The notes beneath the pieces are model-generated. The model did not search any database, was not told the origin of the DNA, and was given only the letters and a program-made list of their open reading frames with translations. Shown in pieces: positions 12,800 to 38,570 of a stretch of 64,000 nucleotides of DNA. Origin of the DNA: Octopus vulgaris (Eukaryota); assembly GCA_951406725.2 (NCBI GenBank), contig OX597817.1, forward strand, positions 44,020,001 to 44,084,000. Direction: 5' to 3'. Each line of letters begins with the position of its first letter. Within the stretch, counting starts at the first letter, position 1. Both the position numbers and the translations under genes were made by a program.

Positions 12800-12891
<92 letters not shown>

Positions 12892-13086: not shown

Positions 13087-13117
<31 letters not shown>

Positions 13118-13319
13118 GTATATGTGTGTGTAAATATAAACACACACACACACATCTATATATATATAAACATATCTGTGTGTGTGTGTATGTATATATA
13201 TATATATATATATAAGTACAATCTGATCTGGCAAAGTTTCTACAGCTGGATTCCTTTTCCTAATGCCACTGTATGTGTGTGTATATATGTGCATGTGTGT
13301 GTGTGTGTGTGTGTATGCT

Positions 13320-14873: not shown

Positions 14874-14929
<56 letters not shown>

Positions 14930-15023
14930 AATCTATATCATAATATAATACATATATAATATATATACAATATAATATATCACATAGTCCTTGTCATTAT
15001 TTAACGTTTGTCTTCCATATATA

Positions 15024-15070
<47 letters not shown>

Positions 15071-15607: not shown

Positions 15608-15990
15608 GTAGGTGCAGGTGTGGCTATGTGCTAAGAATTTTGTTTCCCAACCATATGGTGGTGGGTTCAGTTTGACCGCATGGCACCTTGTACAAATATC
15701 TTCTACTATAGCCTTGGGCTGACCAAAGCTTTGTGAGTGGATTTGGTAGATGGAAACTAAAAGATCATCATGTATACATATATGTGTGTTTGTCTGTATC
15801 TTTGTGTCTGTGTTTGCCCCCCCCCCCACTATCACAACATGACAACTTGTAAGTAGGCAGTTCAGCAAAAAGAGACTGACAGAATAAGTACCAGGTTTAA
15901 AAAATAAGTACTGCAGTTGATTCATTCCACTAAAAATTGAAGGCAGTTCTACAGCATGGCCACAATCTAATGACTGAAACAAATAAAAGA
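15608..15990 (+). mobile_element. SINE, family shared with 21225 and 38200
   Basis: gaccaaagctttgtgagtggatttggtagatggaaact...tgactgaaacaaataaaaga. Confidence 0.8.
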
Positions 15991-16374
15991 CAAGGGCACT
16001 TAGAGAGGGCAAACCGCTGCCAAGGCAACACCAACATCCTCTCAACGATTAGCCAGAGAAGACTTTTAAAATGAAATAAATTCAACTGCTCTCACAAACG
16101 AAAATACTAAAAATTAACCCGACCACTCTCAAAAATTAAGTAAAAAAAAAACGGAAAACTAATCCAGAACCCTTGTCTGGTACCTGATTGATCCCAATGG
16201 TAGTCATGGAATATGAAGGTGGCTGTAGAAAATTTAGTATCAGTAATAAATAGTTTATCCTATCTAATACAAGCCAAAGTTAACAAATTCACCATTCAAA
16301 ATAGTTACAGCCTAAAGGGAGATAATTGAGAAAGACTTGAAAGATCGTAATCAGGTAAGGTAAATATAACAAAT

Positions 16375-16565
16375 AATCAAGTATCCTTGTCTAGGACTAG
16401 ATTGATCTCCAAATCTAATCAGCTCGTGCCAGTCACGTGGCCAAACATCCCTGAAGGTTTCATCTGAATCCATCCAGTGGTTCTTGAGATATCTTGTCCA
16501 CGGACAAACAAACAAACACAACTGAAAACAATACCTCTGCCTTTGCTAAGGCAGAGGGAATAAAA
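16375..16565 (-). mobile_element. Non-autonomous repeat with a terminal hairpin (Helentron/HINE-like)
   Basis: Hairpin cctctgcctt-tgct-aaggcagagg next to (aaac)n; classification tentative. Confidence 0.4.
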
Positions 16566-19500
16566 CATATATATATGTGTGTGTGTGTGTGTGTTTGTGT
16601 GTGGGAAGACACACACAGAGAAAAACATATATATCATATTGCTTTATTCACTTTTTCCTTAATGCTGAAATGTACTGTCTTTCCTCATTCTGTTACTTTG
16701 CACACACCTTTCTTAATTTATAATTATGTTGGAAGACTTTTCATATATACAGATATACATTTGTCTTGTATTGTATTTTTTCAATCCTCCCAACAACTCA
16801 TCTTCAGTTAGACTTTTTTTCTCATTAGCATCTTTAAACATTTTTTTCTATCTTTGTTAATTTTTCATATTCACTCACCTACACCACAGCAACTTACTGA
16901 TACTGTCAAACTGAACAATATTGTCAGTTGGTGTCAAAATAGTAATATTTACTTATAAACTGAAGAAGGATAGAGCTTGATGGTGTTAATTTGTTTTTTT
17001 TTTATTAATATTTTTTTTCCAAATACTTTTTGTCATTCCTCTCTGCAACCTGCTTCATTATTGTTTACTGGTAACATGACACATACTCTTTTTCCTAACT
17101 ACGAGTTATTTCTTCCTTATGTATCCACTATTTATCTATAAATCTCCCTATCTACCTTTCTAATGTTTTATTTATCTACCTAGCCTGTAGTTTATTTCTA
17201 ATTGCCTTTCTAGCATTTTCTCTTGCTCCCTACCTTTTTATCATTGTCAGTATTCTTCTGTCTTTCTATTATTATGTTCTTCTATCTCTTCCTTCTCTCT
17301 CATTTTCTCTCTTTCCTTTGACTTACCTATTATTTTTGCCTTCTCTCCTCTTCCACAGAGCTCTACAAGCCTTCCTCTTTCCACTCCCTGTTTATGTTGT
17401 TGTCTATCTTTTTTTCAAAATGACCAATGGACTGGTCAGTTACATATTTTTTTCAGGTTTGGGCTTGTTGCATTCCTTTTTTCCCTTGATGTTGAAAGGC
17501 ATCCTATCTTTCCTCTATGAACAACTAGTTTTAATTTTGTCTTTATGTCAAAGAGTTTTTATGTATAAAAATAAATGTTTGTTTTGTTTTGTATTTTTCT
17601 CTTCTCTTCACAACTCCTTTTGTTTAATCATTTGGTTAAAACATGATGTCCATGTCTAAGCCCCAGCAGCTTCCATGTTACTGATACAACCAAATTGAAC
17701 TATATTGTCATAAAGTGTCAAAACTGGGATGGTATTTACTTCTCAAATGATGAGGGGTAGAGTATGTTTGCAGTTGCTTGTGTTGGTGTTTTTTCATTTT
17801 GCCTGTAAATTCTTTGTCGTCTGTCTGTGTTATCATTTCATTTATATTATATAATGTGTGTAAGTGTGTGTATGTATGCACACACACACATATACATATA
17901 CCTGCATTCATTCATTCATACAAACATACATACATATATCCATAAAGTTTATACATATATATGTATATATGTGCATACAGATTTCTTTGTTGTCTCTCTG
18001 TGCTAAACTTTTCATTATTATTGATATGTAATGCAACACATACTTTTTCACAACTACTAACATTTATTTTTATCTCTTGTCCACTTTTCTACTCATGTGC
18101 CTGTCTGTCTTTCAATCTATCTATCTACATACCATTTACTATCTATCTTTTGTATTCCCTATATTTTATCATGGCTCAACTCTAGGGAGGAGGCTGAGTC
18201 TTCTTCACCTTGCACTTTGTAGCATGTATTAGATACATTTTATTTTGGCTCCAGCACTAGAGATTAGAGATGTTTTGCTAAGCTAAAAGAATTTATAGCA
18301 GGTTTTTATATAGTTCTGTTTGCATGTAATTATGTCATCATCATGATCAGCAGCAGTAGCAACAGCAGCAGTTATAATTGTTAAAATATACTTAAATGGA
18401 ATTAGTATGATATGGAGACGGGATTAATTGGTATATGAATATCTATTCAATTGATGTATAGTAAGATCATTACAGAGAGTTTTTGAGCAATAGAAGTGTT
18501 TATTAAGTTATATACATTGTCTCAGTCACTACAATAAACCAAAATATTGTTGGTCATATGTATAACTGAAAGGAAATACCAGAGATGAATTTAAAAGAAT
18601 AGTAAAAATAATATAGTAAAAAGCAAGGCAAAACTTATTTTGTAAAATTCTTTTAAAAAATTTAGCTGTCCTCTTTCTATAATAAAGATTATTTTACATT
18701 CACTATTTGCTCTTTAATATCTTTTTCTGTACAATGTTTTCTGAATTTTAAAATTATTTATATAGCAGATTTTCAGATAACTAAATTTATTACTATGAGA
18801 TAAATTTCAGCTTGTGTATATTAATAATTTTAAATAATTCTGAGTAATATTTATCTATATTTTTCTATAAATAGATATAAAAATAATACTGAAAATATTT
18901 AATTTCAAATAGAGCTAGAAATATTAAATATCAAATTTCTAACATATATCTCTTCATTTAATTTGTTTAAAATAAACATAGCTAAACATTTTATTTGATT
19001 AGTTTATACGTTTAACTTTTATTCTATTTACTATATAAAGAGACAAGTTTTAAATCTAGCTGCACTTAAATGGTAGCTTGAAATGAGTGAAATAACAACT
19101 GACTAATTTAATCAGAAGGCCAGCAATTTTAAGGGAAGTTGTTTAGTCAATACCATCAATCCTGGTTCTTTATTTTATTGAACACAGAGGAATGAAAGGC
19201 AAAAGTTGACCTAGGCAGGAACTGAACTCAGAATGTAACAAGCCAGAACAAATGTCTCAAAGTAGTTTTTCCAGTACACTAATGATTCTGCCAGCCCACA
19301 ACCATTAATAAGAGAAACAATAATGAACAAACTTTATATTAAGTATGTAACAAGCAGTTATATAGCATATTTTTTTTTTAGTGACTGTATTATGACGGGC
19401 ACTACTTATATATATTTTCATGATGATGATGATGATTTGTTTAAAATGTGAAATATATTAAATCCCATATTTACATAATTCTAATATGCTAAATATGAGT

Positions 19501-20568
19501 CCAGTCTGTTTTCCAGATATTTTAACATTCAAAGACTACCAATTTAATGCAATATCTGAGGAGACAAATATAAGATAAAATCAGTTAGAACATAAAAAAT
19601 TTAAGCAATATGGATATAAATATAAATTGTTCAAAATACTTTATGTTGCTCATAGTTATCATCATCATTTTATATCTATCTTCCAAGCTTGTATGAATTG
19701 GATGGTTTGCCATTGTCCAAGTTAGTTATTATTTGAAGTTACTGTCCTACAAGATGGACCATGTTTTCCTCCAATATATCAGTTTTCACATGGTTTCTAT
19801 GGTTGGATAACTTTCCAATCAGTCATTTTCAGAGTGAATTGCATGCATTTTATCATGACACTAGCACTAGAGAGATTGTCATGTCCTTTGACATGATTAA
19901 AGAGTCCTATTGAGCTTATATTATGTTTGATCACTAACCACTTTATAGAGTGTACTCAGTACATTTTACCATAGACTAGCACTAAGGAGATTGCCTTGTA
20001 TCTCACATGACTAAATAGCCCTCTTATCCATGACACCACCTATACATTAGTTTAGAAATAGTTCTAAGGAATAAAAGACCATGTGATGATTGAAGATCAA
20101 GTCAATTGAAACATAGAGTACATATAAATATTAAAGAAAAAGAGCTTCATCTCTGAAAAGTAAAAATTTTAATTGCATGCATATAATGAAAGTAAAATAT
20201 TTAATCACTTGCAGATGGTTTTCTACTCACCTAAAGGTATTAGACGCTGGTTTTAGACAAATAAATTTGTACAATTAAATAGTTTAGCTTGTTTAATAAG
20301 ATGAATCAATGACCATGTGTATGTGTGTGTGTACATACACATGACTTAAATTCTATTTTTAATTATTACAGTGAATTAAAATCCTCTCTACATTGTCAGA
20401 GAATGTAACAAGGTTGACTTCTACCTTAAAAGCAAACATTACACACACACACATTCTAATGTACACCAACAATTTAAGTTTGTTTTGAAATTTGCAAGTA
20501 GATTATGATTCTGTTATTAAGCATGTAATACTTGAGTTAGTCATAATGAAAATGGTGTTTATATATAC

Positions 20569-20715
20569 CTGTATAGAATAACAGTCCATCGGCATGTCTG
20601 GTTTTGAAGTACATTGTCAGCTTGTCTTTACTGCTAACAAAAGAGTCACCTCTGCCTGAAAGATCGTATGTCAAGTACTCAACTCCAGTGAAAGTAGCTT
20701 CCACAATAGGCTTTT
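20569..20715 (-). CDS. NRXN: alpha-neurexin exon, start of LNS2 (147 nt, phase 1-1)
   Basis: tttttacttccag|AA AAG CCT...TAT ACA G|gtatat; encodes (E)KPIVEATFTGVEYLTYDLSGRGDSFVSSKDKLTMYFKTRHADGLLFYT(G), similar to vertebrate neurexin [42 protein letters not shown]. In frame with both neighbouring exons; absent from the ORF track. Confidence 0.93.
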
Positions 20716-21224
20716 CTGGAAGTAAAAATAAAAAAATAATAGTTTAGCATACATACTAGATAGTTAAAAATTGAGTGTAACTTTACATTTTATTTAAATA
20801 ATTTTCATGTTAAAAGTCAGCATTTTAGTTTATCATAAGAAGCAGATATGTAAATTATACTCCACAATAAGAGCATTTTAATTGAATTACATTCCAATGT
20901 TAACATTTAGCATTCATTTGATGACAATTTTCATCAATTGAAAATGCCAGTCTTTGCATTTGAGATCATCATTGTGTTTACTATATCTGTATTTGTACCA
21001 CTTTCAGTATCATGTTTATTCTGAAATCACTATAGTGGACAAAATGACATGCAATATTAGTTGTCTCTTCATGCTTTGAGTTGAAATCTGACCGTACTGA
21101 TTTTGCCTTTCATTCTTCAAGAGTTAATGAATCAGTGAAATACTACAGTTTATATAAACAACTATATTCCTTCCTGAAATTTTGTGATCTTGTGCCCATT
21201 TGAGAAATATATCATCATAATAAT

Positions 21225-21632
21225 ATAGGTGCAGGAGTGGCTGTGTGTTAAGTAGCTTTCTTACCAACCACATGGTTTTGGGTTCATTCCCACTGTGTGG
21301 CACCTTGGGCAAGTGTCTTCTACTACAGCCTTGGGTTGACCAAAGCCTTGTAAGCGAATTTGGTAGACAGAAACTGAAAGAAGCCCATCGTATATATGTA
21401 TATATGTATGTGTGTGTATATGTTCGTGTGTCTGTGTTTGTTTCCCCAACATTGCTTGACATCCAATGGTGGTGTGTTTACATCCCCGTAACTTAGCAGT
21501 TCGGCAAATGAGACCGATAGAATAAGTACTAGGCTTACAAAGAATAAGTCCTGAGGTCAATTTGCTCGACTAAAGGTGGTGCTCCAGCAAGGCTGCAGTC
21601 AAATGACTGAAACAAGTAAAAGAGTAAAGAGT
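21225..21632 (+). mobile_element. SINE, near full length, CpG-decayed
   Basis: Colinear with 38200-38570; tail aaacaagtaaaagagtaaagagta. Confidence 0.85.
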
Positions 21633-24600
21633 AATTACCCTGATTAATATTGAATTTATATTTCTTATCAGTAATACTTAGTGTGTAGGTCACTTTTAGC
21701 TGTCCCTTCAGCCTTTCTAAATGGGTTCTGTTGCATCCATTTAAGATAAATTTTCCTCATATCTATTTCATTTATTTGCTTTCTTCACGATATTACTCTT
21801 CTTATATTTCTTAGCAGACTGGTATGCCACAATCACATAGTCTCTTTAGCAGCTTGATTTTTAGCATGAACAATGCCGCAAATCAGAGCATATAGAAAAC
21901 TTTCCAATTATTAATGATTTAAAATTTTGGTCCTGACAGTCAGGCTGCCCTGCTAGAATTTACAGCAGCAAATAGCATGTGATAAAAGCCAACAATGATT
22001 AATCTAATTACTTTTATAATGATTAAAAAACACATCTTTGTTTATTAGTTTAATTCCTGTAATTACCCCCAAATAAATATATGAAGAGCTAATATTTAAA
22101 TATGTCAACTGACATAAGTTCACTCAGAGTTTCAGCTGACCTCAAACTGATGTTATCATTAAATGCTAGGATTAGCACTTACTAAGTGATGAAAATTTGT
22201 ATTTTACTTATTAAATTCTAATGCTAGAATAAGATATAATTGAAATATTCTTGAAAGTGTCAAGCACAGTCCATTGTATTATATTATTTATTCTCTTATT
22301 GATTTTTTCAGTGGTAAGCTAATGGAATTTGGTTTTAAGTTATTCAATCAATATGCTTTTTAGAATTGTCTGTTAACCCAATAAAAAGAAATGCAGGTGT
22401 GATAAATGCCTAACTCAAAATCCAATATGTACTATTTTGATTTAAAAAGTTGATCAGTTAATTTCAGAATTCTGATTGTGACATAAAAATCAATATTTTC
22501 TTTCATACCATACTTTGAAATTTCTTTATAAATAATATTTTATTTTTATTATATTTATTTACTTATTTTATTTCTAAAGTTACTTGAGTAATATAGCTTG
22601 AAGAGCTTTTAAAAAATTCATTATTTTCAATTTTAAATTTATCACATAAGGAGAAATATTGGACTTTACTTGTAGAATGGTGCTGGCAACAGAGCATAAA
22701 GATTTTTAGGTTTTCAAAATTTCTTTCATGTTAGGGTTCATTCAAAATAGATGGATGAAATTCAGTATATATTTTATTTAAATTAAAGGACTTAAAAATT
22801 GATTTTGTTGTATATAATTACCAAATGAATTAATTTTCAAGTACTTAAGCTAACTTCATTGAGCTTATATTTGTTAACACTTCAACAATCTTTTTTTCCA
22901 GTCACCTTTTAATATAGTTACTTTCACCACAACTCTCGGTCGCACTCAAAACCCTTCTCTCTGGGAGCATTTACACAGTTTATGGGCACCATTGCTTCAA
23001 ATCAGAATATAATGAAACTCATTGTTTGCTTAAAACCATACAACATAAGAAATAATATCTTACTTATGTGTAAAGTGACCAGCTGACAGAATTGTTAGCA
23101 CATCAGGCAAACATTTTCTCTGTCTTCATGCCTTGAGTTTGAATTCTAAAGAGATTGACTTTGTCTTTCATTCTTTCAGAGTTGATAAAATAAGTATCAG
23201 TTGGGTGCTGGGTTCGATGTAAACAACTTCCCCACTTCCCCAAAACTGCTAGTCTTGTATCAAAATTTGAAACAAATATTTTACTTATGTATACATTAAA
23301 TTATGTTTAATCATTTTAAATTTTTTCCAAAATGTACATAACATCTGAGATTGATATATTTTGCACAGTAGAAATTTTTTACTACCTTCACAACAGGTTC
23401 CATGAGATTAAAACAGCTTTATTTTTTTTTTAGTAAATTACTTTTAATTTTGTAGTATTTGATGATTATACTGTTGCCTTAGCAAGGATTTCTTGGGTTT
23501 CTCTTCACTGGCCCTACATAAGCATATTCTCTCTCTCTCTCCTCTCTTGCATTCATTGTTCATTGTCACATAGCTGTGACATATATTCTCAGTATGATTG
23601 AAGTAGTTTCGCTACTACCAAAGCAACAATCTATTTATCTTCTCCTATAAGTTCTTTAAACATATCTAAATTTGTAAAAACACTACAAATTCCATACTTA
23701 TGGTATTCATTAAGTGGATTCATCAATTTGTAGTAAAATTTATTTATAAAATTCTGATCTGAAATCCAAGCATTGAAATAATGGAAGAATTTTCTACAAT
23801 GAAATTTATTTTGTTCCTAAATGTATGTACAGTTATACCTTGATGTATGAGTTAATTTATTCCTGGAGATCGCTCATGAAGTGAAAACTTGTAAAGCAGG
23901 GCAATAATTTCTCATAGTAGCAACGTTTTAAATTGTAATTCATTTCCAGAAAACTATTTTACCAATAAAATTTATAATACTTGTAAATAAATGACAATGA
24001 AACAACAGTAGAATGTAAAGAATATTTTATGTGAAGTAAAAAGAATGTCAAGATCATTTACAATAAAAAAATTATAATCGTGTTCTGAATCACTTTCACT
24101 CATACTAGACTCTTGCACACCATCACTTGTAGATGTGGTTGCCGATTCACAAGCACTCGTAGATGGACTTGTAGATTTCTTTTTAAAAAAACAAGTCCAA
24201 AGATGTTTGCTTTTTTCACACTATAAATTTCTCAGTAACACACAGAAGCATTTTTTATGGTAGCCAGGGCTGGTTCAAGGTACTGGCAACTCAGGCAGTC
24301 ACCTGGGGCACCAAAGAGGGCATAAGAAAGACAAGGAAATTTCTACGACTGTCAGCTTGTACATGTTGAAGTTCAGCTTACCCAGGATGCCAAAAACCCT
24401 GATAGTAGCGGAAACTTTTGCACTCCATTCAAAATTTGGATCCTGTGCTTGAAAAATAAAACCCATCAACCTGGGGTCTTGTAAAGTGGGTCCTTGTCAA
24501 GGGAGATATTACTGTACTAATTTGCAAATTTGGATACCAACAAAGAAGAAAATAAGAAACCCTCTCTGGATGAATATTGTAAAACATTATTTAATCTAAT

Positions 24601-24773
24601 CTTACATTATAAAAGAAGCTGATCTCCATCTGTCTGTCCATAACAACATCTATGTAGAGACGGAAGAAGGGGAGGAATCAAAAGGGGAAATAACCCCAAT
24701 TACCCCATATATCTCAGGGGTAAAAGGGAGAGGAGGAAAAGTTGTTGAGGGAGATATACAGTGAGAGCAAGAG

Positions 24774-24816
<43 letters not shown>

Positions 24817-24925
24817 TGTGTCAAAGATAGACAATAACAAGTTTCGATTAAAAATACAAATTTTAAATGCAAGTCTTTCAACATAATGCAACACAGACTT
24901 TAAAAAAATAACTAAATGTATATAT

Positions 24926-24958
<33 letters not shown>

Positions 24959-25094
24959 ATACATATAGTTATTTTTGGGGTTGTTTGTTTGTGTGTGTAT
25001 GTGTGTGTGAGAGAGTGTTTCTTTGTCTTTCAACAAATAGACAAAGCAACAGACTTTCACGATGATGACAGATTGTTGTTGTTGTTGCTGTTGT

Positions 25095-25145
<51 letters not shown>

Positions 25146-25739
25146 GAGAGAGAATTAGAAGAAAAAGTTGTTTTTATTTAAAGAGAAATACAGAGCATGT
25201 GTGTGTGTGAGAGAGAGAGAGGGGGGAGAGAGAATTAAAATTTGTTTAAAAACAGGTTATTGTTGAAGGGTATATTTCATCTTGACTAGGTCATTACCAA
25301 GCAGCATAGCAACAGATTACAACTAGTTTCTATAATAATTGTGTTAACAACTCAGATTCAGTTTTCATTAGCGACAATAGACTTCATTCCTATACTAAAT
25401 AAATTTACAAATTTGCTAAAATAATCATACCTATACTAGCAAAGATAATTAGATGCTAAATGACATAAATATGAAACAAGAAAATAAACAGAAACAAAAC
25501 AATTATAACGATGCTATATTTTCTTTCACATAAATTTGTTTTTTATACATTTTGTATTTCTTTATTTCTATTATTATTATATAATTTTAAAAATCTTTTT
25601 AGTTAAGGTGAAAAACAGTGTCAGTGTTTCATTACAGGGTCTCTGAAAATGACAGGGAAACAAAGTGGGAGGAAAGAAGATTTCCTCAAACTAGAAACCT
25701 GGCCTAAATGAATGCAACAAAGTGAACTCCACTAAAGGC

Positions 25740-27135
25740 ACCTAAGGTATCAGGTAGTAGTTTTAAACTAAGTGACAGGTTAACTCATGATGGGATTTGA
25801 ACTCAGAACACAAAAAGCCAAAACAGATTCTGCATGGCATCAAGTCCAATGTTCTCACAGTCCTGTTAATCCACCATTTTCAAATTGGTCCTTTTTAATT
25901 GATCCTGAAAAGATGAATGGCAAAGATGAACTTGCCAGGATTTGAACTCAAAATGCAAAGAGATGTAATAAATACTGCAAAACAGTATAAATAACAAAAT
26001 TAGAGTTATTCAAAAGATCAATATATTTTTTTGGACATATTCCAAACTTATTATTGTAGATATTAGAACCATTAGCATGCCAGATAAAATGCTTGGTGAC
26101 ATTTTGTCTGTCTATATGCTCTGAGCTCAAATTCTGCTGAGGTTGATTTTGCCGTTCATCTTTTTAGGGTTGATAAAATAAGTACCAGTCAATGTAACTG
26201 ACTTCTTCCTCCCTTCAAAAACTGCTGGCCCTGTGTCAACATTTGAAACTATAATAGTAAATAATAGAGAAACCTTTTGTCAAAGTGTTGGCAGAAATAA
26301 ATGGAATGCTATAAAAACAGGTTTTAGTCTGTGAAGATATCAACTGCTAATTATAGTTAAAATTGCAATTAAGACAATTAAATGATGGGAAGACATGGTT
26401 TAATTTCTTATATATATGAGACATTAGGTGTAAAGACATGTGGCCTAATGGCTAGGGTGCTCAACTCATGATCTTAAGCTCATGGGTGCAATTCCTGGAT
26501 TAGGTGGTGTTTTGTGTTCCCTTAACATTGATAGTCTACTTAGCTGTAATAAGTACCAGCCTAGTGCTGATGCAGCTCCCTCTCCCTTCAGCTGTCACAT
26601 ACTGGATGTTATGCAGGGTCAAGGGCAAGACAGTTGAGAAGGTATCTAGTCTACTCATGATTACAAAGGCATCTAAAACAAGTTGTGAAAGCATGAAACC
26701 GGTTACTAAGCTGTGTTTATACTGGTGAGTGATGGCTGGTTATACAATATATATCTTGTTATCTTTTATTCATTTCATTCATTAGACTGTGGATGTGCTG
26801 GGGTACTGCCTTGGAGAGTTTAGTCCAACAAATTGTGCCTATACATTTTTCTTAAGTCTGGAACTTATTGGTTTCATTTTTGCTGAACTGCTAAATTATG
26901 AGGACATTAACAAACTTTGTCAGTGAGTGGTAGGGACAAATACAAATACAAAGACACACACAGACACATGCACACATATACAACAGGCTTATTTCAGTTT
27001 TTCAACTACATCTTCTCACAAGGCTTTGATCAACTTGGGGCTATAGTAGAAGCCGCTTTCTTAAGGTGCCAAACAGTGGGATTGACTCCAGAACCATGTA
27101 GTTGAGAAGCAAACTTCTTACCACACAGTTATGCT
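25740..27135. mobile_element. Cluster of decayed SINEs in both orientations
   Basis: ggatttgaactcagaa (25793, 25938, minus), tcaaattctgctgaggttgattttgcc (26127, plus), minus copy at 26760-27135. Confidence 0.7.
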
Positions 27136-29971
27136 GTGTATATATTCTATTATATATGCATATATAAGGTGCATTTTGTCAATACATTTGGAGATAGATT
27201 CTACAGTTTTCAAATTTTTCTGCATAAATGAATAATACCAGTCTGCTAAATTAAGGCAGATTTCTTTGTTTAACTGCTAATTATTTTAGCTACCTAGCTT
27301 TGTTAAATGTCTTTCTTTACTATATTACATGGCATTTCTTTATTAAATGCATATGTAATAAACTGATAAGGGGATCTTTCTAAACGGTTTGATAACACAA
27401 GTATTGACTGAAATTTATTTCGAAAGTCCTCTGGAATCAGTGCCAATATGCAATAGTTAATACATTTATAGCAGATGTGTAACTCAAATCAGTTATGCTT
27501 GATTAAGCAGAAGCCTACTGCAGGTGTAGCCAATTGAATTATTGGGAACAATCCAAACTCAAGCAGTTTGGGTATATAATGATTCAGTGAAGTCTGCAAA
27601 TACATTGTGTATCCTGTCATGCAGCAGTTATTTTAGGCAAGAAATGTAGCAATCATAGAAGAGAAGTGAAAAATGAGTTGATCATAAAGGGGGGATAATT
27701 TTGTTGTAGAAGAAAATCGAGACATTTATATTAGAAGTTTGTTTCCATTCCTCTCTGTGTGTCTATGTCAGAATTAAATCAAGAGATCATGATCCACTTG
27801 AAATAGTAGTTCCTGAATCACTTTCTACTATCGTAAAAGTAAAGGAATTACACATTGAATAAAAATAATCATCCATACAAAAGAAAATACATGGGCTGGT
27901 CATGACTGGAATGTTTTTCATCATATATCTTGTTCCATATATACTGACTTAGCTAGTATATGGGTCGAATGCTTGATTTTTATATATTTTCATAACGAAT
28001 GAGAATTTGAGTGACAGTGAATTTCTTTTTGTTTTATATAGGAACAAATAACAAAAATCATATAACAAGGCTTGCGAATAGTTTTGGTGATGTATATTTT
28101 TAAGTGCTTAGCACTTAAAAATCGTTTACGTGTTTAAGCACTTCGTAAGATAGACTACAATTTTCGTCGTAATTGTGTTCGAAAAGCAAATAGAAAAATG
28201 TATTTTGATAAATTTTTTAGAGATTTGAATATTATTAAATTATAACATTTTAAAATCATTTATATTAAAATCACTGGGGTTTGATTATCAAATACGATAG
28301 ATGTTTACCAATAGGTGATAAGGTTGAAATAAATATTAAGTCTATTTGATATATCTCAAGTTAAAATAACGATAACGGAAAGTGACTGGCATAAATTTTA
28401 TCTTTTACTTGTCTCAGTTATTGAATTGCGGTCATAGTGGAGTACTGCCGTGAATCGATCCCTATACTTAATATTTTTAAAGCCTGGTACTTAGTATTCA
28501 AAGTGTTTAGCTAAAAAAAAAAAATCTGTCCGACAGATTGAAAAGATCCATTGTCAAAGGTGGTGGGGAACGAACACAGAGATAAAAGCACACACCCCCA
28601 CATATACGTCCGGTTTCTTTTAGCTTCCACCTACCAAAGACACCCACAACAATTTGGTCGTCCCAAGGCTATCGTACAAGACACTTGCCTAAGGTGTCAT
28701 GCAGTTGCACTGAACCCGGAACTATGTAGTTGGGAAGCAAACTTTTAATTACACAGCAACGCTTGCGCTTATATATAAAAAAATATTTAATATAATGTAC
28801 GACAGACAACATAAAAAAGTAAGATCTTATGGCAATACTCGGGAATATATACTGGATATTTGGTCTATTTTTCTCAGAAGAAAGAAATGTCAAACGTGAG
28901 TATTTACAAAAATGAATACAAATAAGGCAACAAAATCTACAAATACAACTAAAATGCAGACTCATAATTTTGTACATTGTTAAAGTTACGGCATTAGATC
29001 AACTATTGTATGAAAATGTCAGAACAACTTAGTGTTTTTATAGAGAGAAAAATAAACTAAGTGTATTGATATGCCGTCATTTTTCTTTCGTAGAAACGTG
29101 ATATGGAGAGTTGGTGCGTTTTCACTGAAATAATGTAAGTTAAAGAGACTGGACAAGACATTTTAGTTGAGCCGAATTAAAATTGGTGAGAGGTGAGCAG
29201 CATTAGCGTCTTTTCATGTCGGAGAGATTGCGTGTAGCAGACGATAGAATTTCACTGAGGCGCATGCGTAGAATTAGGAACGCGTTTCTTTGGAATTGGA
29301 ACTATTGATGATTGACAAGAGATATGATCAGGAATGACTTATTTAGCCCTAGGTCAGCTGTGATCGAACACACACTCCCACGCACGCACGCACACATACG
29401 CACGCACACACACGCACGCACACACACGAACGCACGCACACACGAACGCACGCACACGCACAGTTTGTCAGAAACGTTTTCTGTACACAGTCTCTTGATC
29501 TGCTAGAAATAGTAGCGAACTGTTCCTGAAATCACCCCCCCCCCGAAACTACGCATTGGATAGTATAGTCATCCATACACAAAGGATGAATAATAATAAA
29601 GCAAAAAAAAAAAAAAGAAAAAAAATGGTTTGGTCACGGCTGGAATACCTTCCATCATAGATCTGATGAATCATGACTGATTCAGTTAGTGAATACGACA
29701 TTAAACGGGACGAACGTTTAATTAAAAAAAAAATATATTTTCCTATCGAAAGAAAACTAATTTGACTCACAGCGAATTTACTTTTATTTTATATGAGAAG
29801 AAATAAAAGAAAATATAATAGGGTTTACAAATAGTTTTGTTGACAGTAATTTTTTGTGCTTCATCACCAGTACGATGGACTATAATTTTCATCATAATAA
29901 TCTTCGAAAATCGAAAGAAAAATTGCATTTTCATATTTTTGCAAGACATTTGAATGTTATTACATTATTTG

Positions 29972-30177
29972 CACGCCGGGTGAAATGCGTAGCCGTATTT
30001 CGTCTGCCGTTACGTTCTGAGTTCAAATTCCGCCGAGGTCGACTTTGCCTCTCATCCTTTCGGGAGTCGATTAAATAAGTACCAGTTACGCACTGGGGTC
30101 GACGTAATCGACTTAATCCGTTTGTCTATTCTTATTTGTCTCCTCTGTGCTTAGCCCCTTGTGGGCAATAAAGAAAT
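29972..30177 (+). mobile_element. Young tRNA-derived SINE with CpGs intact; same family at 32352-32545, 37740-37950, 39292-39525, 39891-40112 and 42605-42733
   Basis: B-box-like gagttcaaattcc; central domain gcct(c/t)tcatcctttcggg(a/g)gtcga. Confidence 0.85.
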
Positions 30178-30241
30178 ATAACATTTTAAAACCAGTCGTA
30201 TTAAAATCACTACGGTTCGTGTAATCACCATCGAAAGTTGA

Positions 30242-30366
30242 TGAGTTCGAAATAAATATTAGGTTTTAAAAATGTCTTCTCAAATATCCCATGTTAAAAT
30301 GACGACAGCAAAAGTCTAGTATATTATATATATATACATAATATATATATATATAAATATAAATAT

Positions 30367-30450
<84 letters not shown>

Positions 30451-30567
30451 TTTGAAATAAATATTAGGTTTTAAAAATGTCTTCTCAAATATCCCATGTT
30501 AAAATGACGACAGCAAAAGTCTAGTATATTATATATATATACATAATATATATATATATAAATATAA

Positions 30568-30651
<84 letters not shown>

Positions 30652-30743
30652 TTTGAAATAAATATTAGGTTTTAAAAATGTCTTCTCAAATATCCCATGT
30701 TAAAATGACGATAGCAAAAGTCTAGTATATTATATATATATAC

Positions 30744-30816
<73 letters not shown>
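30242..30816 (+). repeat. Three near-identical ~200-bp units, each ending in (TA)n
   Basis: tgagtt(c/t)gaaataaatattaggttttaaaaatgtcttctcaaatatcccatg at about 30242, 30447 and 30648. Confidence 0.92.
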
Positions 30817-30824
<8 letters not shown>

Positions 30825-31239
30825 CGATAGACCATGATATAATGTAAGACCTCATGGCAATACCCAGGAATATATATTTGATATTTGGTTTACTTTTCTC
30901 AGAAGAAAGAAATGTTAAAAACATGAGTATTTACAAAAATGAATACAAAGCAAGAAAACCAAATCGACAAATACGACTAAAATGTAAACTCACCATTTCG
31001 TATATTTGTTAAAGTTACGGCATTAGACAGACTTACTGTATGAAAAATGTCAGAAGAACTTAGTGCTTTAAATAAGAGAGAGAAAGAAACTAACTGTATT
31101 GATATGCCGTCATTTTTGTTTTGTGGAAACGTTGGTAAATTTTTAGTGAAATAAATCAAAGTTAAAGAGACTGGACAAGACATTTTAGCTGAGCCGTTTT
31201 AAAATTGGTGAAAGGTGAGCAGCATTAGCGTCTTTTCAT

Positions 31240-31315
31240 GTCGGAGAGATTGCGTGTAGCAGACGATAGAATTTCGCCGATGCGCATGCGTAGAATTAGG
31301 AACGGCGTTTCTTTA
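31240..31315. promoter_or_regulatory. CpG-rich block with NRF1-like motif TGCGCATGCGTA; also at 29259-29270 and 31881-31892
   Basis: The motif resembles the NRF1/EWG consensus YGCGCAYGCGCR; the block is well preserved across three copies; function inferred only. Confidence 0.45.
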
Positions 31316-31391
31316 GGATTAGAACTGATGGTGATTGACAAGAGATATGATCAGGAATGGTTATTATCTAGCCCTAGGTCAGCTGTAATCG

Positions 31392-31485
<94 letters not shown>

Positions 31486-32866
31486 TACACACACATGCAG
31501 TCACTCACACACACACACGCACACAAACACACACACACATAGATTGTGTCACAAACGTTTGTTTTCTATGCATAGTCTCTTGATCTGCTAGAAATAGTAG
31601 CGAAATGTTCCTGAAATCACTCCCCCTAAAACTACGCATTGGATAGCATAATCACCCATACACAAAGGGTGAAAAATTAAAAAAATAATAATAAATGGTT
31701 TGGCTACGGCTGGAATACCTTCAATCATAGATCTGTTGAATCAAGACTGATTCAGTTAGTGAATACGACATTAAACGGGACGAACGTTTAATTTTTAAAA
31801 AATATTTTCCTATCGAAATAAAATTTGAGTGACAGCGAATTTACTGAAATTGTGTGTAGCAGACGATAGAATTTCGCCGATGCGCATGCGTAGAATTAGG
31901 AACGGCGTTTCTTTAGAAACAGTAGGATTGATGTTGTTTAGCCCTAGGACAGCCCCAATTGAACAAAATAAACCTATGACCTATACGTGTTATGACAAAC
32001 GAATCTGTCCTTTAGTTCTTTTAAATAGATATACTAATGATTTATCAATAGAACATCAGCATCTTAGAGTTAATTCATTTTCTTTCGCTAGGAAAATACA
32101 TAGAACTTAAAATATTTCCTGTTAATGTTGATTATACACTAGCTAAATCAATCTTGATTCTACAGATTAGCGACAAAAAAATTCAAGCTGTGACCAGCCT
32201 AACTCTCATTCCTAATTTTCAAAAATAATGTATTGTTGGTTATATTATCCAACGTGTCCTTCAGTTTTCTATAAGATAAGAGGGAGTGATTTCAGGAACA
32301 TTTCGCTGCTATTTCTAGCAGATAAAGCAACTGCGTATAGGATCTTTCGGTTTGCTTAGCGGTATTTCGTCTGCCCCTACGTTCCGAGTTCAAATTTCGC
32401 CGAGGTCGACTTTGCCTTTCATCTTTTCGGGGTCGATTAAATAAGTACCAGTTACGCCTTGGGGTCGATGTAATCGACTTAATCCGTTTGCCTGTCCTTA
32501 TTTGTCCCCTCTGTGTTTAGCCCCTTGTGGGCAGTAAAGAAATAGGTTTGTTTGTCACACACACGTACTCACACAGGCACGCACATGATATGAAGCCGCC
32601 TGTTGAAACTGTGCATCAATTGCATTATTGAAGGGCTATTTTGATTATCTAAAAATACATAAATTCACGGTTCATTTACTTCTTTTATCATTTGTTTGTT
32701 TCATTCATTCAACTGTTATCATAATGGGGAATCGCCTTGAAGGGTTTAGTTAAACAATTTGCCTCCAGGCTTATTTTTAAGTCTGGCACATATCGTGCCA
32801 GTCTTTTTGCTGAATAACTATGTTACAGATATGTTACTCAGGTTGTCAAGCGGTGATGGAAGACAA

Positions 32867-32899
<33 letters not shown>

Positions 32900-32944
32900 C
32901 ACACACACACATACATACATTGCAGCTGTGGTTAAGCAAACCAT

Positions 32945-33293
32945 CCACTTGTGGTCGTTGCCAGCGCCGCCCCGACTGGCCTCCATGCCGGTGGCACATA
33001 AAAGCACCATCCGTTCGTGTCCGTTACCAGCCTTGCTTGGCCCCCGTGCCGGTGGCACGTAAAAGCACCATCCGTTCGTGGCCGTTTGCCAGCTCCATCT
33101 GGCACCTGTGCAGGTGGCACGTAAAAAGCACCCACTACACTCGCGGAGTGGTTGGCGTTAGGAAGGGCATCCAGCCGTAGAAACACTGCCAGATCAGACT
33201 GGGTCTGATGCAGCCTTCTGGCTTCACAGACCCCAGTTGAACCGTCCAACCATGCTAGCATGGAAATCGGACGCTAAATGATGATGATGATGA
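32945..33293 (+). mobile_element. RTE-type LINE 3' end with internal tandem repeats and (ATG)n tail
   Basis: Three copies of ggtggcac(a/g)taaaa(a)gcacc; ends ggacgctaaatgatgatgatgatgat. Confidence 0.75.
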
Positions 33294-33859
33294 TATATAT
33301 ACACACATACATATACATACACATACATATATACACACATACATATATATATCGCTATGGTCTTACCACTAAGTGCTAAGACCATAGCGGATCTATTTCT
33401 AGCATAAGGGAGTCCACATAGTGGTTTCCCTCTAATATGTATTTAATGCAATTTTACTGAACCTTCAGTTTTTTTATATGCTAGACCACTGGTGTGAAAT
33501 CGATGTTAATTAAATTAATATCTAATTTCTCGCCCTCATTTTAAATTTATATATATGTAAGAAAGCGGATTTGAAAATGCAGAGCTCTTTTAAAAATGCT
33601 TATTGACTTGACCGGTTTCACTTTTTTAAAAAAAGATTTTCAAAAGTAAGATGTAAAGGCTTTGTGTAGCCTTTGTTGTGTTAAAAACTGGTAATCATAG
33701 ATGTATTAAATATGATTTCTGTATATATGCTTCTATACAATCATGACTTTTGATGAACTTATAAATAATTATGAATTTATTTTACTACCTATTTTGAACA
33801 CTTTTATGTAAACTGTTTAAACAAAAAGCCCTCTTAACATTTTCTTATCACTGTACTGG

Positions 33860-34795
33860 CACTGGCAAAAGAAATTCAGTGGTTTACATGAGGGGCAGAG
33901 GGAACAACTTTAGGATTGCCTTAATGGAGGAACAGTACCAGATTGGATGACTAGAGGGAGGACAATATGAAGGATAAGAACAAGTGTAATACAGCTAGCA
34001 GCTACTGACTAACCATTTGCTTACCATTAGTGTGGAAGCTGTTCACAGGAATGCTTTCAGAAAGCATTTATGAGCACCTTGACAACAAGAATTTACTACC
34101 AGAAGAACAGAAAGGTTGCAGGAAGAAGGCTAGAGGAACGCATGATCTATTATGTGTAGACAAAACAGTTCTAAATGAAATAAAAGCTAGAAAAAAAAAA
34201 TCTAATGATAGCATGGATATATTATAGGAAAGCCTACGACATGATCTCACACTCATGGATAAGTGAAAGTTTGAGTATATTCAGTATAGCAGACAACATA
34301 AGAGAATTAATTAGCTTTAGCATGAAAAAATGGAAAGTAGATCTATACTCAGTTTATATCGAAAGAGAAACTTTCCAGGGAGACTTGTTGTCCCCTTTAA
34401 TATGTTTGATCCCACTCAGTTTAGTATTAAGGAAGGCAAAGGCAGGATATCAGTTCAGAAATAGTAATGGAAAAATTAACAATTTGCTCTACATGGATGA
34501 TCTGAAGCTTTTAGTAAAAATGAATAAGAGATAGATTCCTTAATTCAGACTGTAAGACTCTTCAGCAAAGATAGAGGCATGGAATTTGGCATAGATAAGT
34601 GTGCAATATTAGTCATGAGAAAGGGACAGGTAGTTAACAGTGAAGGCATCCAATTACCAGATGGCCAGACAGTAAAATCATTGAAAGAAGGAGAGAGTTA
34701 GAAGTATCTAGGAGTATTAGAAAGTAAAAAATACAAGATGTGGGACTTTAACATTCAGACTGACAGAGTAATAGAAGCTAGAGGGCCGGTTACTT
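33860..34795 (+). pseudogene. R4/Dong-like non-LTR retrotransposon RT remnant, joined by internal deletion to an endonuclease fragment
   Basis: WKLFTGML..LLPEEQKGCRK..IAWIYYRKAYDMISHSWI..QGDLLSPL..NLLYMDDLKL, then WDFNIQTDRVIEAR; frameshifts present; (TAA)n tracts downstream. Confidence 0.85.
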
Positions 34796-35839
34796 GCTGT
34801 AACCTAATAGGAAGGTTCTTGGCATCTAAGGCTACTTGTAACCCAATGTTAGGATTCTTTTCTTTTCCAACAGTCTAATCTGTTGAGTGTAAAATAACAA
34901 CAACAACAACAATAATAATAATGATGATGATAATAATAATAATAATAATAATACTAAATGCCCTGATGCAGTACCAGGCAGTAGCTCTCATGGCTTCTGA
35001 TCTTAACTGATTGGAAGTGTTATCATGTACATTGTTTTGCCTTGGTATAAAAGATGGGCTACAGCAAATATTCTGCTCAATACCACAGATTTGCTTGTCA
35101 GTTGTTTGTGTACAATACTGTGCCCCAGCATGGCCACAGCTCATGAGCTGAAACTAGAATCAATCAATCATAATAATATTATAATAAATTCACAGCGTCC
35201 CCCAATCCACTGCCTTCATTTTCTCTACCACCCACACCGCCCCCTTTGGCACCAGCGCCCACCTGGACCGTCTCAACACCCACTGGGGAGCAGTGGTGCC
35301 CACTTTGAGAACCTATGCTCAAATACATTACAGTAGAAACGTATTTTTTCGAAAGTTAAAAGTTATGGCCAGTCATAGAATGACCATTGGTTTCACACCT
35401 ATAAAGCACTTAGCAGTAAAGGCAGCTCATTAGGCTGAAGGTGCATAACCATTTTACAGAAATTTCCATAGCCATCAACGTAAACATTCTCATTTATAAC
35501 ACCTGTATGTTCTGAAAATGTAATTTTCCCAAATGAAGTGCACTTCATATTCAAAGCTCTGATGAAGCTATAGAATTTTATCCTGGTACTCAACTAAGAG
35601 TTCAACACATCTTATAGCTGAAACAGCTGTAACCTAATGAAGTTCATTACGAAACATTTGTTTTTTTCAATATTATCTCTTTGTTTTCTATTACCATATT
35701 GTGTTCTGGACTGTACATATATTGAGTTCTACATCAAGTTATTAATCTCACTATACCTTAGCGAGATATCAATATAAGGAAAAACAGAAACTGAAGATGT
35801 AATTGATGAATAACGATTGATTTACATCAATTATCATTT

Positions 35840-36095
35840 ATTATTGAACATTTATGGTGCATTTTAGAAAAACAAGTAAGGAGTCGATATCCTCCACCAC
35901 CATCACTACAAGAACTGGAGACTGTTTTAGCTGAAGAATGGACAAAAATTCCTTTGGAAACAATTCAAATTTTGTATGAGTCCATACCTCATAGAATTCA
36001 AGCTGTAATTACTGCCAAAGGCTGTCCTACCCCATATTAAAGTAAATTTGTTTGAAATTTTAAGATGTTTCCATTATTTTGTCCTATCGCTGTAT
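35840..36095 (+). mobile_element. Tc1-like transposon 3' end
   Basis: IEHLWCILEKQVRSRYPPPPSLQELETVLAEEWTKIPLETIQILYESIPHRIQAVITAKGCPTPY*, followed by a TIR-like end gtttccattattttgtcc..ctgTA. Confidence 0.85.
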
Positions 36096-37163
36096 ATACA
36101 CTGCCCTACCAGTTCCCCTGTACACAGCTATGTCAGTATCTCTATGTACACCTATATCTGGTCGTACATCTGCAACCGACCGATCTACTTCTATGCAGCT
36201 CTGTCCACTGTCGAAGTCGTAAATGGACAACGATAAGTTTGACAACCCAAGAAATTAATTTAAGTCTTTTTGTGTGTTTAGATGGTTTACAACAAGGTCT
36301 TCCACGGTGTAATTTCATTAACATTTTGTGTCAGTATTTAACTGTTGATCTCTTGTTGGTGTTTTGCCATTTTATAGCTTCCACAAACTTTAGTGAAAAT
36401 TTCAAATTTGATTGTATAAATTTTACTGTTGTTTTTGATTCGAATTTTTGCTCATGACTGTATTTAACCACCGTGACGCATTCTGACTGAAATCTCATTT
36501 TTCATTACAGATCATAACCTCAAATGATTTAGGGTCCTTCTGAGAAGGAGTTCTTTCAACGAAAATATTGGTTTCCTTCATCCTCTGGCATATGACTTGT
36601 GAGTTAAAAGTCAAACTTTTAGCTAATGCTGGCTCATTGAAGTTATTTTTTTTTCCGATAAAAAAATTTTTTTTTATCGACGTCTTGATTTTGTATTTTA
36701 ACGTTATTCATTTCTTCTCAAGGATTGAAGAGTAGAACCTCCATAAAAATTTTATTCATAGTAATGTAGTTGGGGTGCAGTGAAATTATAATTCACCTTA
36801 CCTAAAAACCTGTTTCTGAGATGTAGGCTGATGCTGTCTTCATGCTTTATTATCTACTTGGGCTACTCATGTTGAAGTGTTTCATGTACTTTAAGGATAT
36901 CCTAGAGTTTCTTTTAGAGCTATAACAACTGTATGCATGTGGATAATGATTACCCGGTATGTCTTTTCAGTGTTATCATTTCCTTTCATTAATTTCCATC
37001 AATGTTATGTATAAAATTTAACATGGAAATGTTTTTTCTTTCTCCTGTCAAAAATGGTTTGTTCTTTAATGGTAGCTTGGAAAAGTAAGAAAAAAATTGT
37101 TAATGCGGTTTTAAATTATTTTTCAAGTTAGCTACATTTTAAAGTCCCCTCTGTCGGATCAGA

Positions 37164-37219
<56 letters not shown>

Positions 37220-37410
37220 TTGTATATATATTCTGGTACTTATAGCCCAATGTATAATTCAAAATATGAAAAGTTAGTTCTAGTCGATAAATTCGACATG
37301 GCGAGAATCAGAAACACAAACCGCAAACTGTCTAGGGACCAACTCACCTTTTTTAACTAAAAAAAATTTACCATCATTTTTCCATTTTTTTTATTTTTTG
37401 GAGAGTTTAC

Positions 37411-37444
<34 letters not shown>

Positions 37445-37604
37445 AAAAAAAACAAACCAAAAGACGAAGGCAGGTGGTGTACAAAACAAACAGATGTATT
37501 AGTATAACGCTCAGGAATAGAAAAAGTCTTTTACGTTTCGAGCCTACGCTCTTCTACAGAAAGGGACACAGAAAAAACAAGGAAAGAAAAAATGTGTGTA
37601 GTGG

Positions 37605-37681
<77 letters not shown>

Positions 37682-38199
37682 GATAGAAGTTGAGTAATGT
37701 TGTTTGTTGTGATATAAGCCTAGAGTTTCTTGTGGTGGAGAGTAGGAACAATCGTTAGTAAGCTGGGCAATGCTTAGCAGCATTTTGTCTGTCTTTACGT
37801 TCTGAGTTCAAATTCCGCCAAGGTCGACTTTGCCTTTCACCCCTTTCAGGATCGATAAAATAAGTACTAGTTGAGTACCGGGATCGATATAATCAATTAG
37901 GTCTCGCCCCACAAAAAAATTTAGGCTTTGTGCCGAGAGTAGAAAGAATACCTACGGTTTGTTTACATGTTTATCTCCCTTTTCTATAAAAGCATATGGA
38001 TTGTTTGAGTTCGAAAAAATCTATTAGTATCACAAGGGTTGGAGTAACTAGTTATCTGTTACTGTGGTTATTATTTGTCTTTCCGAAGAATGCTTGCAAT
38101 GTTGAAACGGTGTTAAGTAAACGGGAAGTATGTCGATAGGCAAATAGAATCTAGCGCTACGAGTTCTATTTTACAAGAAAATATTGTAGTCTTTCGAGG

Positions 38200-38570
38200 A
38201 TCGTGGTAAGTAGCTTGCTTACAAACCACATGGTTCCGGGTTCAGTCCCACTGCATGGCACTTTTGGCCTCGGACCGACCAAAGCCTTGTGAGTGGATTT
38301 TGCAGACGGAAAACTGAAAGGAGCCCGTCGTATATATGTATGTGTGTGTATATGTTTGTGTGTCTGTTTTTGTCCCCATCAACATCGCTTGACAACCGAT
38401 GCTGGTGTGTTTACGTCCCCGTAACTTAGCGGTTCGGCAAAAGAGACCGATAGAATAAATACTAGGCTTACAAAGAATAAGTCCTGGAGTCGATTTGCTC
38501 GACTAAAGGCGGTGCTCCAGCATGACCACAGTCACATGACTGAAACGAGTAAAAGAGTAAAAGAGAGTAT
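38200..38570 (+). mobile_element. SINE with CpGs intact (family of 21225)
   Basis: Colinear with 21225-21632. Confidence 0.85.

What the first reader, a model, noticed from the sequence alone, without database searches (positions are those of the whole stretch)
21225..38570. Sharp CpG-decay boundary at about 28 kb inside a single neurexin intron
Seen: copies of the same repeat families have lost CpG left of about 27.95 kb and kept it on the right. SINE 38200 versus 21225 shows ttccgg>ttttgg, cctcgg>ccttgg, agacgg>agacag, cccgtc>cccatc, atcgct>attgct, tacgtc>tacatc, agcggt>agcagt, gtcgat>gtcaat and ggcggt>ggtggt. The same contrast holds for the RTE tail (32945 versus 13330) and another SINE family (29972 versus 26070). 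Unique sequence also gains CG abruptly. Known: invertebrate methylation is mosaic and marks bodies of broadly transcribed genes. Inference: the left 28 kb is a germline-methylated transcription unit that starts or ends here and is distinct from the full-length neurexin transcript.
Basis: partly seen in the sequence, partly recalled or inferred. Interest (0 to 1): 0.72.

Follow-up and report, generated by a model that had tools for sequence, protein, structure and literature searches.

The report
Copied block at neurexin methylation edge
In an octopus neurexin gene, the loss of CG pairs typical of inherited DNA methylation begins abruptly in mid-intron, right at the end of a DNA block found at only one other place in the genome; that block likely acts as a second start site, which would yield a shortened neurexin transcript.

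Summary
The step is real. CpG o/e is 0.21 left and 0.83 right of about 27,950. SINE CpG sites show 41% versus 9% transitions, and the gap holds at matched repeat age. A contig from another run bridges the step, so a mis-join is very unlikely.

The low-CpG domain is not a separate gene. It runs about 294 kb along neurexin (minus strand), from 7 kb before coding exon 2 past the stop, and joins a tail-to-tail CD36-like gene.

New here: the step coincides with the left end of a 4.6-kb tandem block whose only other copy lies upstream of alpha-catenin on another chromosome. The block holds NRF1-like motifs and the only strong neurexin-sense splice donor in 21-33.5 kb, behind an ATG frame in phase with exon 2. 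Four other genes have their edge 2.5-12 kb inside; neurexin's is 36 kb from its ATG.

Best reading (0.45): a duplicated promoter starts germ-line transcription here. Rival (0.35): the block only ends an extended unmethylated 5' zone.

The parts
27443..28330 (.). CpG step; change point 27,953, partial CpG decay fading to about 28,330
1..27950 (-). Window part of the CpG-depleted domain (o/e 0.21-0.23), which continues about 266 kb beyond the window's left end
27750..32354 (.). Tandem block of two full units (about 1.7-2 kb) and one partial unit, with MITE-like and SINE insertions; its only paralogue is at G000:C2:203,506,049-203,512,700 (62-85% alike)
29260..29268 (.). NRF1-like motif GCGCATGCG, unit 1 (motif name recalled)
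31282..31290 (.). NRF1-like motif, unit 2
31882..31890 (.). NRF1-like motif, unit 3
30994..31183 (-). Candidate alternative first coding exon: ATG, 63 stop-free codons, donor G|GTGAGT at 30,993, in the phase of neurexin exon 2; predicted only
28955..29160 (-). Decayed equivalent in unit 1: five 1-2 base deletions and a 12-base insertion against unit 2, donor lost
63179..63899 (-). Neurexin first coding exon (signal peptide, LNS1, EGF1), phase-1 donor; outside the domain
20569..20715 (-). Neurexin second coding exon (start of LNS2)
9839..9999 (-). Neurexin third coding exon
28121..28467 (+). One locus-specific contig (1 difference, depth 14.7) in run X1, whose kind is only guessed as RNA; ends just before an A-run; ambiguous
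21225..21630 (+).
38195..38565 (+). SINE copy with CpGs kept (right member of the pair)
33850..34750 (+). LINE fragment of a CpG-poor family; accounts for much of the local dip right of the step

Best explanation
The CpG step is the 5' edge of a long CpG-depleted domain over the neurexin gene body, and it is likely set by a duplicated promoter-like block in the intron that is predicted to start germ-line or broad transcription leftwards, in neurexin sense. SHOWN: the step; its match to the block's left end; the block's single paralogue upstream of alpha-catenin; the domain's reach to the neurexin 3' end; and a phase-compatible ATG-to-donor frame in unit 2. FROM ESTABLISHED KNOWLEDGE: methylated CpG decays to TpG/CpA, and only germ-line methylation leaves an inherited trace; invertebrate methylation follows transcription units. 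INFERRED: an old segmental duplication placed a promoter here; transcription starts near 31.2 kb; elongation-linked chromatin recruits DNMT3 from about 3 kb downstream while the bound promoter stays unmethylated; the neuronal full-length promoter, at least 36 kb further right, is too little used in the germ line to methylate its own stretch. The transcript would splice from 30,993 to exon 2 and lack LNS1-EGF1. Whether it makes a protein is the weakest step.
For: 1) The block's homology starts at about 27,750 and no unit lies further left; the change point is 27,953. 2) A 32-base core pattern has 6 matches in 2.8 Gb, 3 here and 3 at C2, control 0; DNA searches agree. 3) GCGCATGCG occurs 3 times in 604 kb, all in this block. 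4) In four other genes the edge lies close behind the first exon seen: 2.5 kb (L205), about 4.2 kb (neurexin-like gene on C8), about 5 kb (alpha-catenin, exon 1 judged by eye), about 12 kb with an LTR element in between (CD36-like). The candidate exon is 3.2 kb from the step; the neurexin ATG is 36 kb away. 5) 3 of the 4 strong donors in 21-33.5 kb lie in the units, and the only minus-strand one is at 30,993. It is kept in three C2 copies, whose rightward AAG|GTAAGC donor is lost in all three units here. 6) Only the exon-2 phase is open behind that donor (68 vs 5 and 9 codons); 38 of 781 background donors have such an ATG frame. 7) Literature: Nematostella germ-line remethylation follows transcription and is faster at 5' ends (PMC13345969, section 10).
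Against: No transcript is shown. The NRF1-like motif did not mark CpG edges elsewhere: 1 of 20 motif loci vs 0 of 20 controls, and about half the hits are repeats. The C2 block is not at its own edge; it lies 8-14 kb upstream of the probable alpha-catenin exon 1, and the side its leftward donor faces is CpG-rich, with no host exon found among 110 of 195 candidate frames scanned. Excess conservation of the core was significant in only 2 of 6 non-independent pairs. The two signal-peptide-like C2 frames differ by 4 changes, all amino-acid changing, and the frame here has a weak N-terminal hydrophobic stretch (1.5 vs 2.4 for the real signal peptide). All 14 long isoforms among the 15 of 26 cluster members listed begin with the normal exon. 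The donor and frame were found after the block, so their odds are post hoc. The calibration rests on four genes. A class of octopus genes with an unmethylated first third is already described (PMC9476566).
Confidence: 0.45

Rival explanations
1. There is one promoter only. Full-length neurexin transcription methylates the gene body, but a long 5' regulatory zone stays unmethylated, and the block is a factor-bound island (enhancer or barrier) that ends this zone without starting a productive transcript.
For: Macchi 2022 describes 6,545 octopus transcripts unmethylated in the first third and methylated 3' (PMC9476566). The C8 neurexin-like gene is CpG-depleted over its body, and I did not look for a comparable block there. 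The weak AT skew has the same sign across 28-164 kb as in the domain. All annotated long isoforms seen start at the normal exon. The step at the block's end fits this reading equally well.
Against: Four other genes have their edge within 2.5-12 kb. Remethylation in Nematostella is 5'-biased, not 3'-biased. It does not explain the kept leftward donor and the lost rightward donor.
Confidence: 0.35
2. The match to the block is chance: an ordinary gene-body edge falls next to an old, neutral duplicated fragment.
For: Introns here are full of old insertions. Core conservation is modest. A signal-like frame behind a strong donor occurs in 31 of 781 background cases.
Against: The edge lies within about 200-300 bases of the block's end in a 42.5-kb intron, and the block holds the region's only NRF1-like motifs.
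Confidence: 0.1
3. A plus-strand (antisense) transcript, such as read-through from the CD36-like gene or a long non-coding RNA, crosses neurexin and ends at about 28 kb.
For: The far edge of the domain is the 5' part of a plus-strand gene. The X1 contig at 28,121-28,467 ends just before a plus-strand A-run. The block holds 12 plus-strand AATAAA against 1 on the minus strand.
Against: The CD36-like coding exons end 253 kb left of the window start. Tail-to-tail genes sharing one domain are known in Ciona (PMC3827831 passages). The skew sign fits minus-strand transcription when calibrated on the C8 gene. No long plus-strand frame that looked like a host exon was seen inside neurexin (frames of 150 aa or more, judged by eye).
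Confidence: 0.08
4. The step is an assembly mis-join, or the left-side repeats are simply older.
For: Left SINE copies have slightly higher non-CpG divergence.
Against: The age-matched gap persists. An X15 contig bridges the step. The exons are collinear across it. Unit homology runs through it.
Confidence: 0.02

Closest known systems
Invertebrate mosaic gene-body methylation: Ciona sperm domains (Suzuki 2013, PMC3827831; seen: passages) and Octopus bimaculoides patterns MP2/MP3 (Macchi 2022, PMC9476566; seen: passages, section 7 whole, 13 of 22 supplements searched, one cut)
   Same: Sharp edges, domains over gene bodies, repeats methylated passively by position, one domain over tail-to-tail genes, unmethylated 5' part.
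   Different: Here the edge is at least 36 kb inside the gene and coincides with a two-locus duplicated block. Methylation itself was not measured, only its mutational trace.
LTR-initiated transcription units that set oocyte methylation domains (Brind'Amour 2018, PMC6102241; seen: abstract and outline)
   Same: A lineage-specific inserted promoter would drive germ-line transcription and lay methylation over downstream DNA.
   Different: The insert is a two-locus segmental duplicate, not a multicopy LTR; the host is an invertebrate; transcription is not shown.
CT-GABRA3 overlapping transcript from the MAGEA6 promoter (Fain 2021, PMC8405634; seen: abstract and outline)
   Same: A long transcript through a neural gene brings H3K36me3 and DNA methylation over its whole length.
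   Different: That case is tumour-induced in human cells; this is an inherited, long-standing state inside the gene's own intron.
Vertebrate beta-neurexin downstream promoter (as summarised in Biswas 2008, PMC2570956; seen: passages)
   Same: An internal promoter with a private first exon spliced onto shared neurexin exons.
   Different: Beta-neurexins keep one LNS domain. The predicted form would keep LNS2-LNS6 and lose only LNS1-EGF1; its signal peptide is doubtful.

Membership tests
Germ-line gene-body methylation domain | CpG-specific loss to TpG/CpA independent of sequence age | tested here: met
Germ-line gene-body methylation domain | Domain coincides with gene bodies and has sharp edges | tested here: met
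   Neurexin from its long intron to its 3' end plus a tail-to-tail CD36-like gene
Germ-line gene-body methylation domain | 5mC measured in sperm or egg | not testable with these tools
   No bisulfite or nanopore methylation data on hand
Inserted-promoter methylation domain (LIT-like) | An inserted or duplicated element lies at the domain's 5' edge | tested here: met
   which of the two loci is the source was not resolved
Inserted-promoter methylation domain (LIT-like) | The element is an LTR or other multicopy transposon | tested here: not met
   Two loci only; repeats inside it are separate insertions
Inserted-promoter methylation domain (LIT-like) | Transcripts start in the element in germ cells | tested here: inconclusive
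   contigs only, tissue unknown, and unit 2 lay outside the stretch laid
Inserted-promoter methylation domain (LIT-like) | Domain absent in species without the element | not testable with these tools
   No relative genomes are held for this window
NRF1-type housekeeping promoter | Motif present and over-represented in the genome | tested here: met
   (539 vs 6 control matches; about half of a 20-locus sample are repeats)
NRF1-type housekeeping promoter | Motif marks methylation edges generally | tested here: not met
   1 of 20 vs 0 of 20
Beta-neurexin-like isoform | Private first exon with a donor in phase with the shared exon | tested here: inconclusive
   Frame and donor are present; no spliced read and no protein relative
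Beta-neurexin-like isoform | Only the last LNS domain retained | tested here: not met
   Position is before LNS2
Beta-neurexin-like isoform | Cleavable signal peptide | tested here: inconclusive
   Hydropathy only: 1.5 in the first 25 residues, about 2.0 further in; no signal-peptide predictor was run

The most novel reading that the evidence does not exclude
A promoter-and-exon block duplicated between the alpha-catenin upstream region and the neurexin intron gave octopus neurexin a second, germ-line-active start. It produces a neurexin lacking LNS1-EGF1 with a newly recruited 63-residue N-terminus, and it fixed the edge of a roughly 290-kb inherited methylation domain: an invertebrate case of a copied promoter shaping both the methylome and the isoform set of a synaptic gene.
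Probability: 0.2. Interest if true: 0.75.

Novelty: new variant of a known kind. Interest (0 to 1): 0.52.

Why it matters
What sets the edges of invertebrate gene-body methylation is open; in Ciona, promoter identity alone did not explain it (PMC3827831 passages). This locus is a natural experiment: a sharp edge, a candidate cis element with one paralogue in a different setting, and clear predictions for existing octopus methylomes and RNA data. If the internal start is real, it also points to an undescribed neurexin form and shows that CpG steps can reveal hidden promoters from sequence alone. If not, it is a tidy example of a known pattern.

Tried and rejected
RNA holders: no run on record as RNA holds the stretch; this is no evidence either way. 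Reads: one attempt on a long stretch laid nothing. On 26,650-29,340, the three RNA-guess runs X1, X3 and X7 had no contig over 28,810-29,340, even at 80% likeness; absence in contigs of unknown tissue proves nothing, and the candidate exon and exon 2 were not in the stretch.

Strand asymmetry of SINE substitutions: none of 7 comparisons in the domain was convincing (best p 0.049). Compositional skew is weak and does not locate a start.

NRF1-like motif as an edge marker: rejected. YY1-like motif as a way to find promoters: 19 of 20 loci showed no clear edge and many are repeats, so it gave one calibration gene.

Rfam: no family above its gathering score in 27.5-32.6 kb. Protein search with the 63-residue frame: 2 hits, both repetitive proteins judged spurious.

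Argonauta gene models split neurexin at this same intron (P0125 exon 1 alone, P0135 starting in exon 2). I treat this as a likely gene-prediction split, not as support.

I first noted the CD36-like exon next to the far edge as its first coding exon; one search showed it is the second.

Literature searches found no paper on this locus; (cephalopod, neurexin, methylation, intron) gave one unrelated paper. Nine Macchi supplements were not searched and one was cut; their gene list by methylation class may bear on the claim. Earlier scan notes: nothing relevant.
Full report
SETTING. The window is G000:C4:44,020,001-44,084,000 in a 2.8-Gb genome. Its right end encodes a neurexin N-terminus 100% identical to a protein named neurexin-3 of Octopus sinensis. 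The gene is on the minus strand: coding exons at 63,179-63,899, 20,569-20,715 and 9,839-9,999, the rest running to a stop about 235.6 kb left of the window start. An acceptor-like site about 400 bases before the ATG suggests the true start lies still further right (by eye).

THE OBSERVATION. CpG o/e falls from 0.83 to 0.21 at about 27,950, with TpG/CpA excess on the low side and GpC nearly flat. The change point is 27,953 (95% 27,558-28,066). Across 258 SINE pieces in 604 kb, CpG-site transitions are 0.39-0.41 inside the domain and 0.09-0.12 to the right. Left copies are a little older, but the gap holds in all five divergence classes: 37/134 vs 39/679, 75/176 vs 68/884, 114/278 vs 36/294, 115/269 vs 44/195 and 59/149 vs 120/516 (consensus from right-side copies). 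A contig from run X15 bridges the step with 4 differences in 1,602 bases. That CpG-to-TpG decay records germ-line 5mC is established knowledge; methylation was not measured here.

EXTENT. The low-CpG domain (o/e 0.23) runs about 294 kb, to -265.8 kb. The right side stays near 0.8-0.9 for 236 kb continuously and in 10 of 10 spot samples out to +560 kb. The far edge lies 0.8 kb behind the second coding exon of a plus-strand CD36-family gene, which ends at -253 kb, tail to tail with neurexin. One domain over converging genes is described in Ciona (PMC3827831, passages). So the domain is neurexin minus its first coding exon and 35 kb of intron, plus that neighbour.

HOW UNUSUAL IS THE POSITION? 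In four other genes the edge lies 2.5 kb (L205), about 4.2 kb (neurexin-like gene on C8), about 5 kb (alpha-catenin, exon 1 judged from a strong donor) and about 12 kb (CD36-like, with an LTR element in between) behind the first exon seen. For neurexin it is 36 kb. Four genes are a thin calibration, and Macchi 2022 reports a class of 6,545 octopus transcripts with an unmethylated first third (PMC9476566, section 7).

WHAT SITS AT THE STEP. From about 27,750 to 32,354 lies a tandem block of two full units and one partial unit. Profiles find no unit further left, and CpG decay fades over the block's first 550 bases. Its non-repeat parts match one other locus, C2:203,506,049-203,512,700, at 62-85%; the 650 bases left of it are single-copy. 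A 32-base core pattern has six matches genome-wide, three at each locus. The C2 copy lies 8-14 kb upstream of the probable first exon of alpha-catenin (Vinculin family) and faces the other way relative to its host gene. Each unit carries GCGCATGCG, an NRF1-like motif (name recalled; NRF1 motifs at unmethylated sponge promoters are noted in PMC8286816, passages). These are the only three such sites in 604 kb. Which locus is the source could not be decided.

SPLICE ANATOMY. With an approximate donor matrix, 3 of 4 strong donors in 21-33.5 kb fall in the units (background 0.25 per kb per strand). The only one in neurexin sense is at 30,993. Three C2 copies keep it. They also keep a donor facing the other way just behind the motif, which all three window units have lost. 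Behind the 30,993 donor only the phase that fits exon 2 is open: 68 codons, ATG at 31,183. 38 of 781 background donors do as well, so this is about a 1-in-20 event, found after the fact. Unit 1 has lost donor and frame. In two C2 copies the frame reads like a short signal peptide, but their 4 differences all change residues and no plus-strand host exon was found among 110 of 195 frames scanned, so coding function is not supported there.

RESULTS AGAINST. The motif, though 90-fold over its reversed control, sat at a CpG edge in 1 of 20 sampled loci against 0 of 20 controls, and about half the hits were repeats. Core conservation beat a scan null in 2 of 6 pairs. Annotated long isoforms all start normally (14 of the 15 listed of 26 members; the other is exon 1 alone). 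The 63-residue frame has no credible relative. The one locus-specific contig in an RNA-guess run (X1, 28,121-28,467) ends before an A-run and could be internal priming, an antisense artefact or open-chromatin DNA.

MECHANISM. Most likely (0.45) the block is a duplicated promoter that fires leftwards in germ cells or broadly, so that elongation-linked chromatin brings DNMT3 from about 3 kb downstream to the gene's end, while the full-length promoter leaves its 5' stretch unmarked. In Nematostella, germ-line remethylation follows transcription and is faster at 5' ends (PMC13345969, passages and section 10). The main rival (0.35) is an extended unmethylated 5' zone that the block merely ends. Chance (0.10), an antisense unit ending here (0.08) and artefact (0.02) follow.

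COMPARISON AND NOVELTY. It belongs with invertebrate gene-body methylation domains on the features testable here. It would work like the LTR-initiated oocyte domains (PMC6102241, abstract) or CT-GABRA3 (PMC8405634, abstract), but it is not an LTR. It is not a beta-neurexin, which keeps one LNS (PMC2570956, passages). My nine literature searches found nothing on this locus (listed under Tried and rejected). Verdict: real feature, known process, with an unexpected and directly testable candidate cause. New variant of a known kind, interest 0.52.

Noticed in passing
G000:C2:203,506,049-203,512,700 (L118, L119): Tandem array of five related cores upstream of alpha-catenin; three keep the NRF1-like motif with strong donors on both strands, and two have a signal-peptide-like frame facing away from alpha-catenin with no host exon found.
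   Followed up: partly
G000:C4:43,742,437-43,766,943 (L066, L067, L044): Plus-strand CD36-family gene, tail to tail with neurexin; the Argonauta locus tags are adjacent too. Its CpG edge lies just behind coding exon 2.
   Followed up: yes
G000:C8:116.95-117.07 Mb (L086-L098): Second, divergent neurexin-like gene (about 30% identity) with intermediate CpG depletion starting about 4 kb behind its ATG.
   Followed up: partly
window 33,850-34,750: LINE fragment of a CpG-poor family; the 11 best other copies are CpG-poor too and their flanks have o/e 0.22-0.49, as if the family sits mainly in methylated regions.
   Followed up: partly
G000:C4 about 43,747,500-43,751,700 (L066, L067): Gypsy-like LTR element with long frames in the first intron of the CD36-like gene; observed only.
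   Followed up: no
window 49,251-49,734: Inverted repeat with 241-base arms, 97% complementary, 2 bases apart.
   Followed up: no
window 30,241-30,725: A roughly 205-base piece around a (TA)n tract is repeated three times at 97-99% identity: a very recent expansion or an assembly stutter inside unit 2.
   Followed up: no
SINE density, 604 kb around the window: SINE pieces are sparser over most of the CpG-poor domain (1.4-2.1 per 10 kb; 3.6 in the window part) than upstream (5.6) or beyond it (10.8); partly a detection effect of decay.
   Followed up: no
L140 (C1:26.19 Mb), L151 (C4:29.93 Mb), C2:91.94 Mb: A CpG-rich short-period satellite built around the NRF1-like motif (22-29 copies per locus in L140 and L151).
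   Followed up: no
G000:C2:203.571-203.584 Mb (L125, L126): Minus-strand immunoglobulin-domain exons in CpG-rich DNA, 60-75 kb beyond the C2 block.
   Followed up: no
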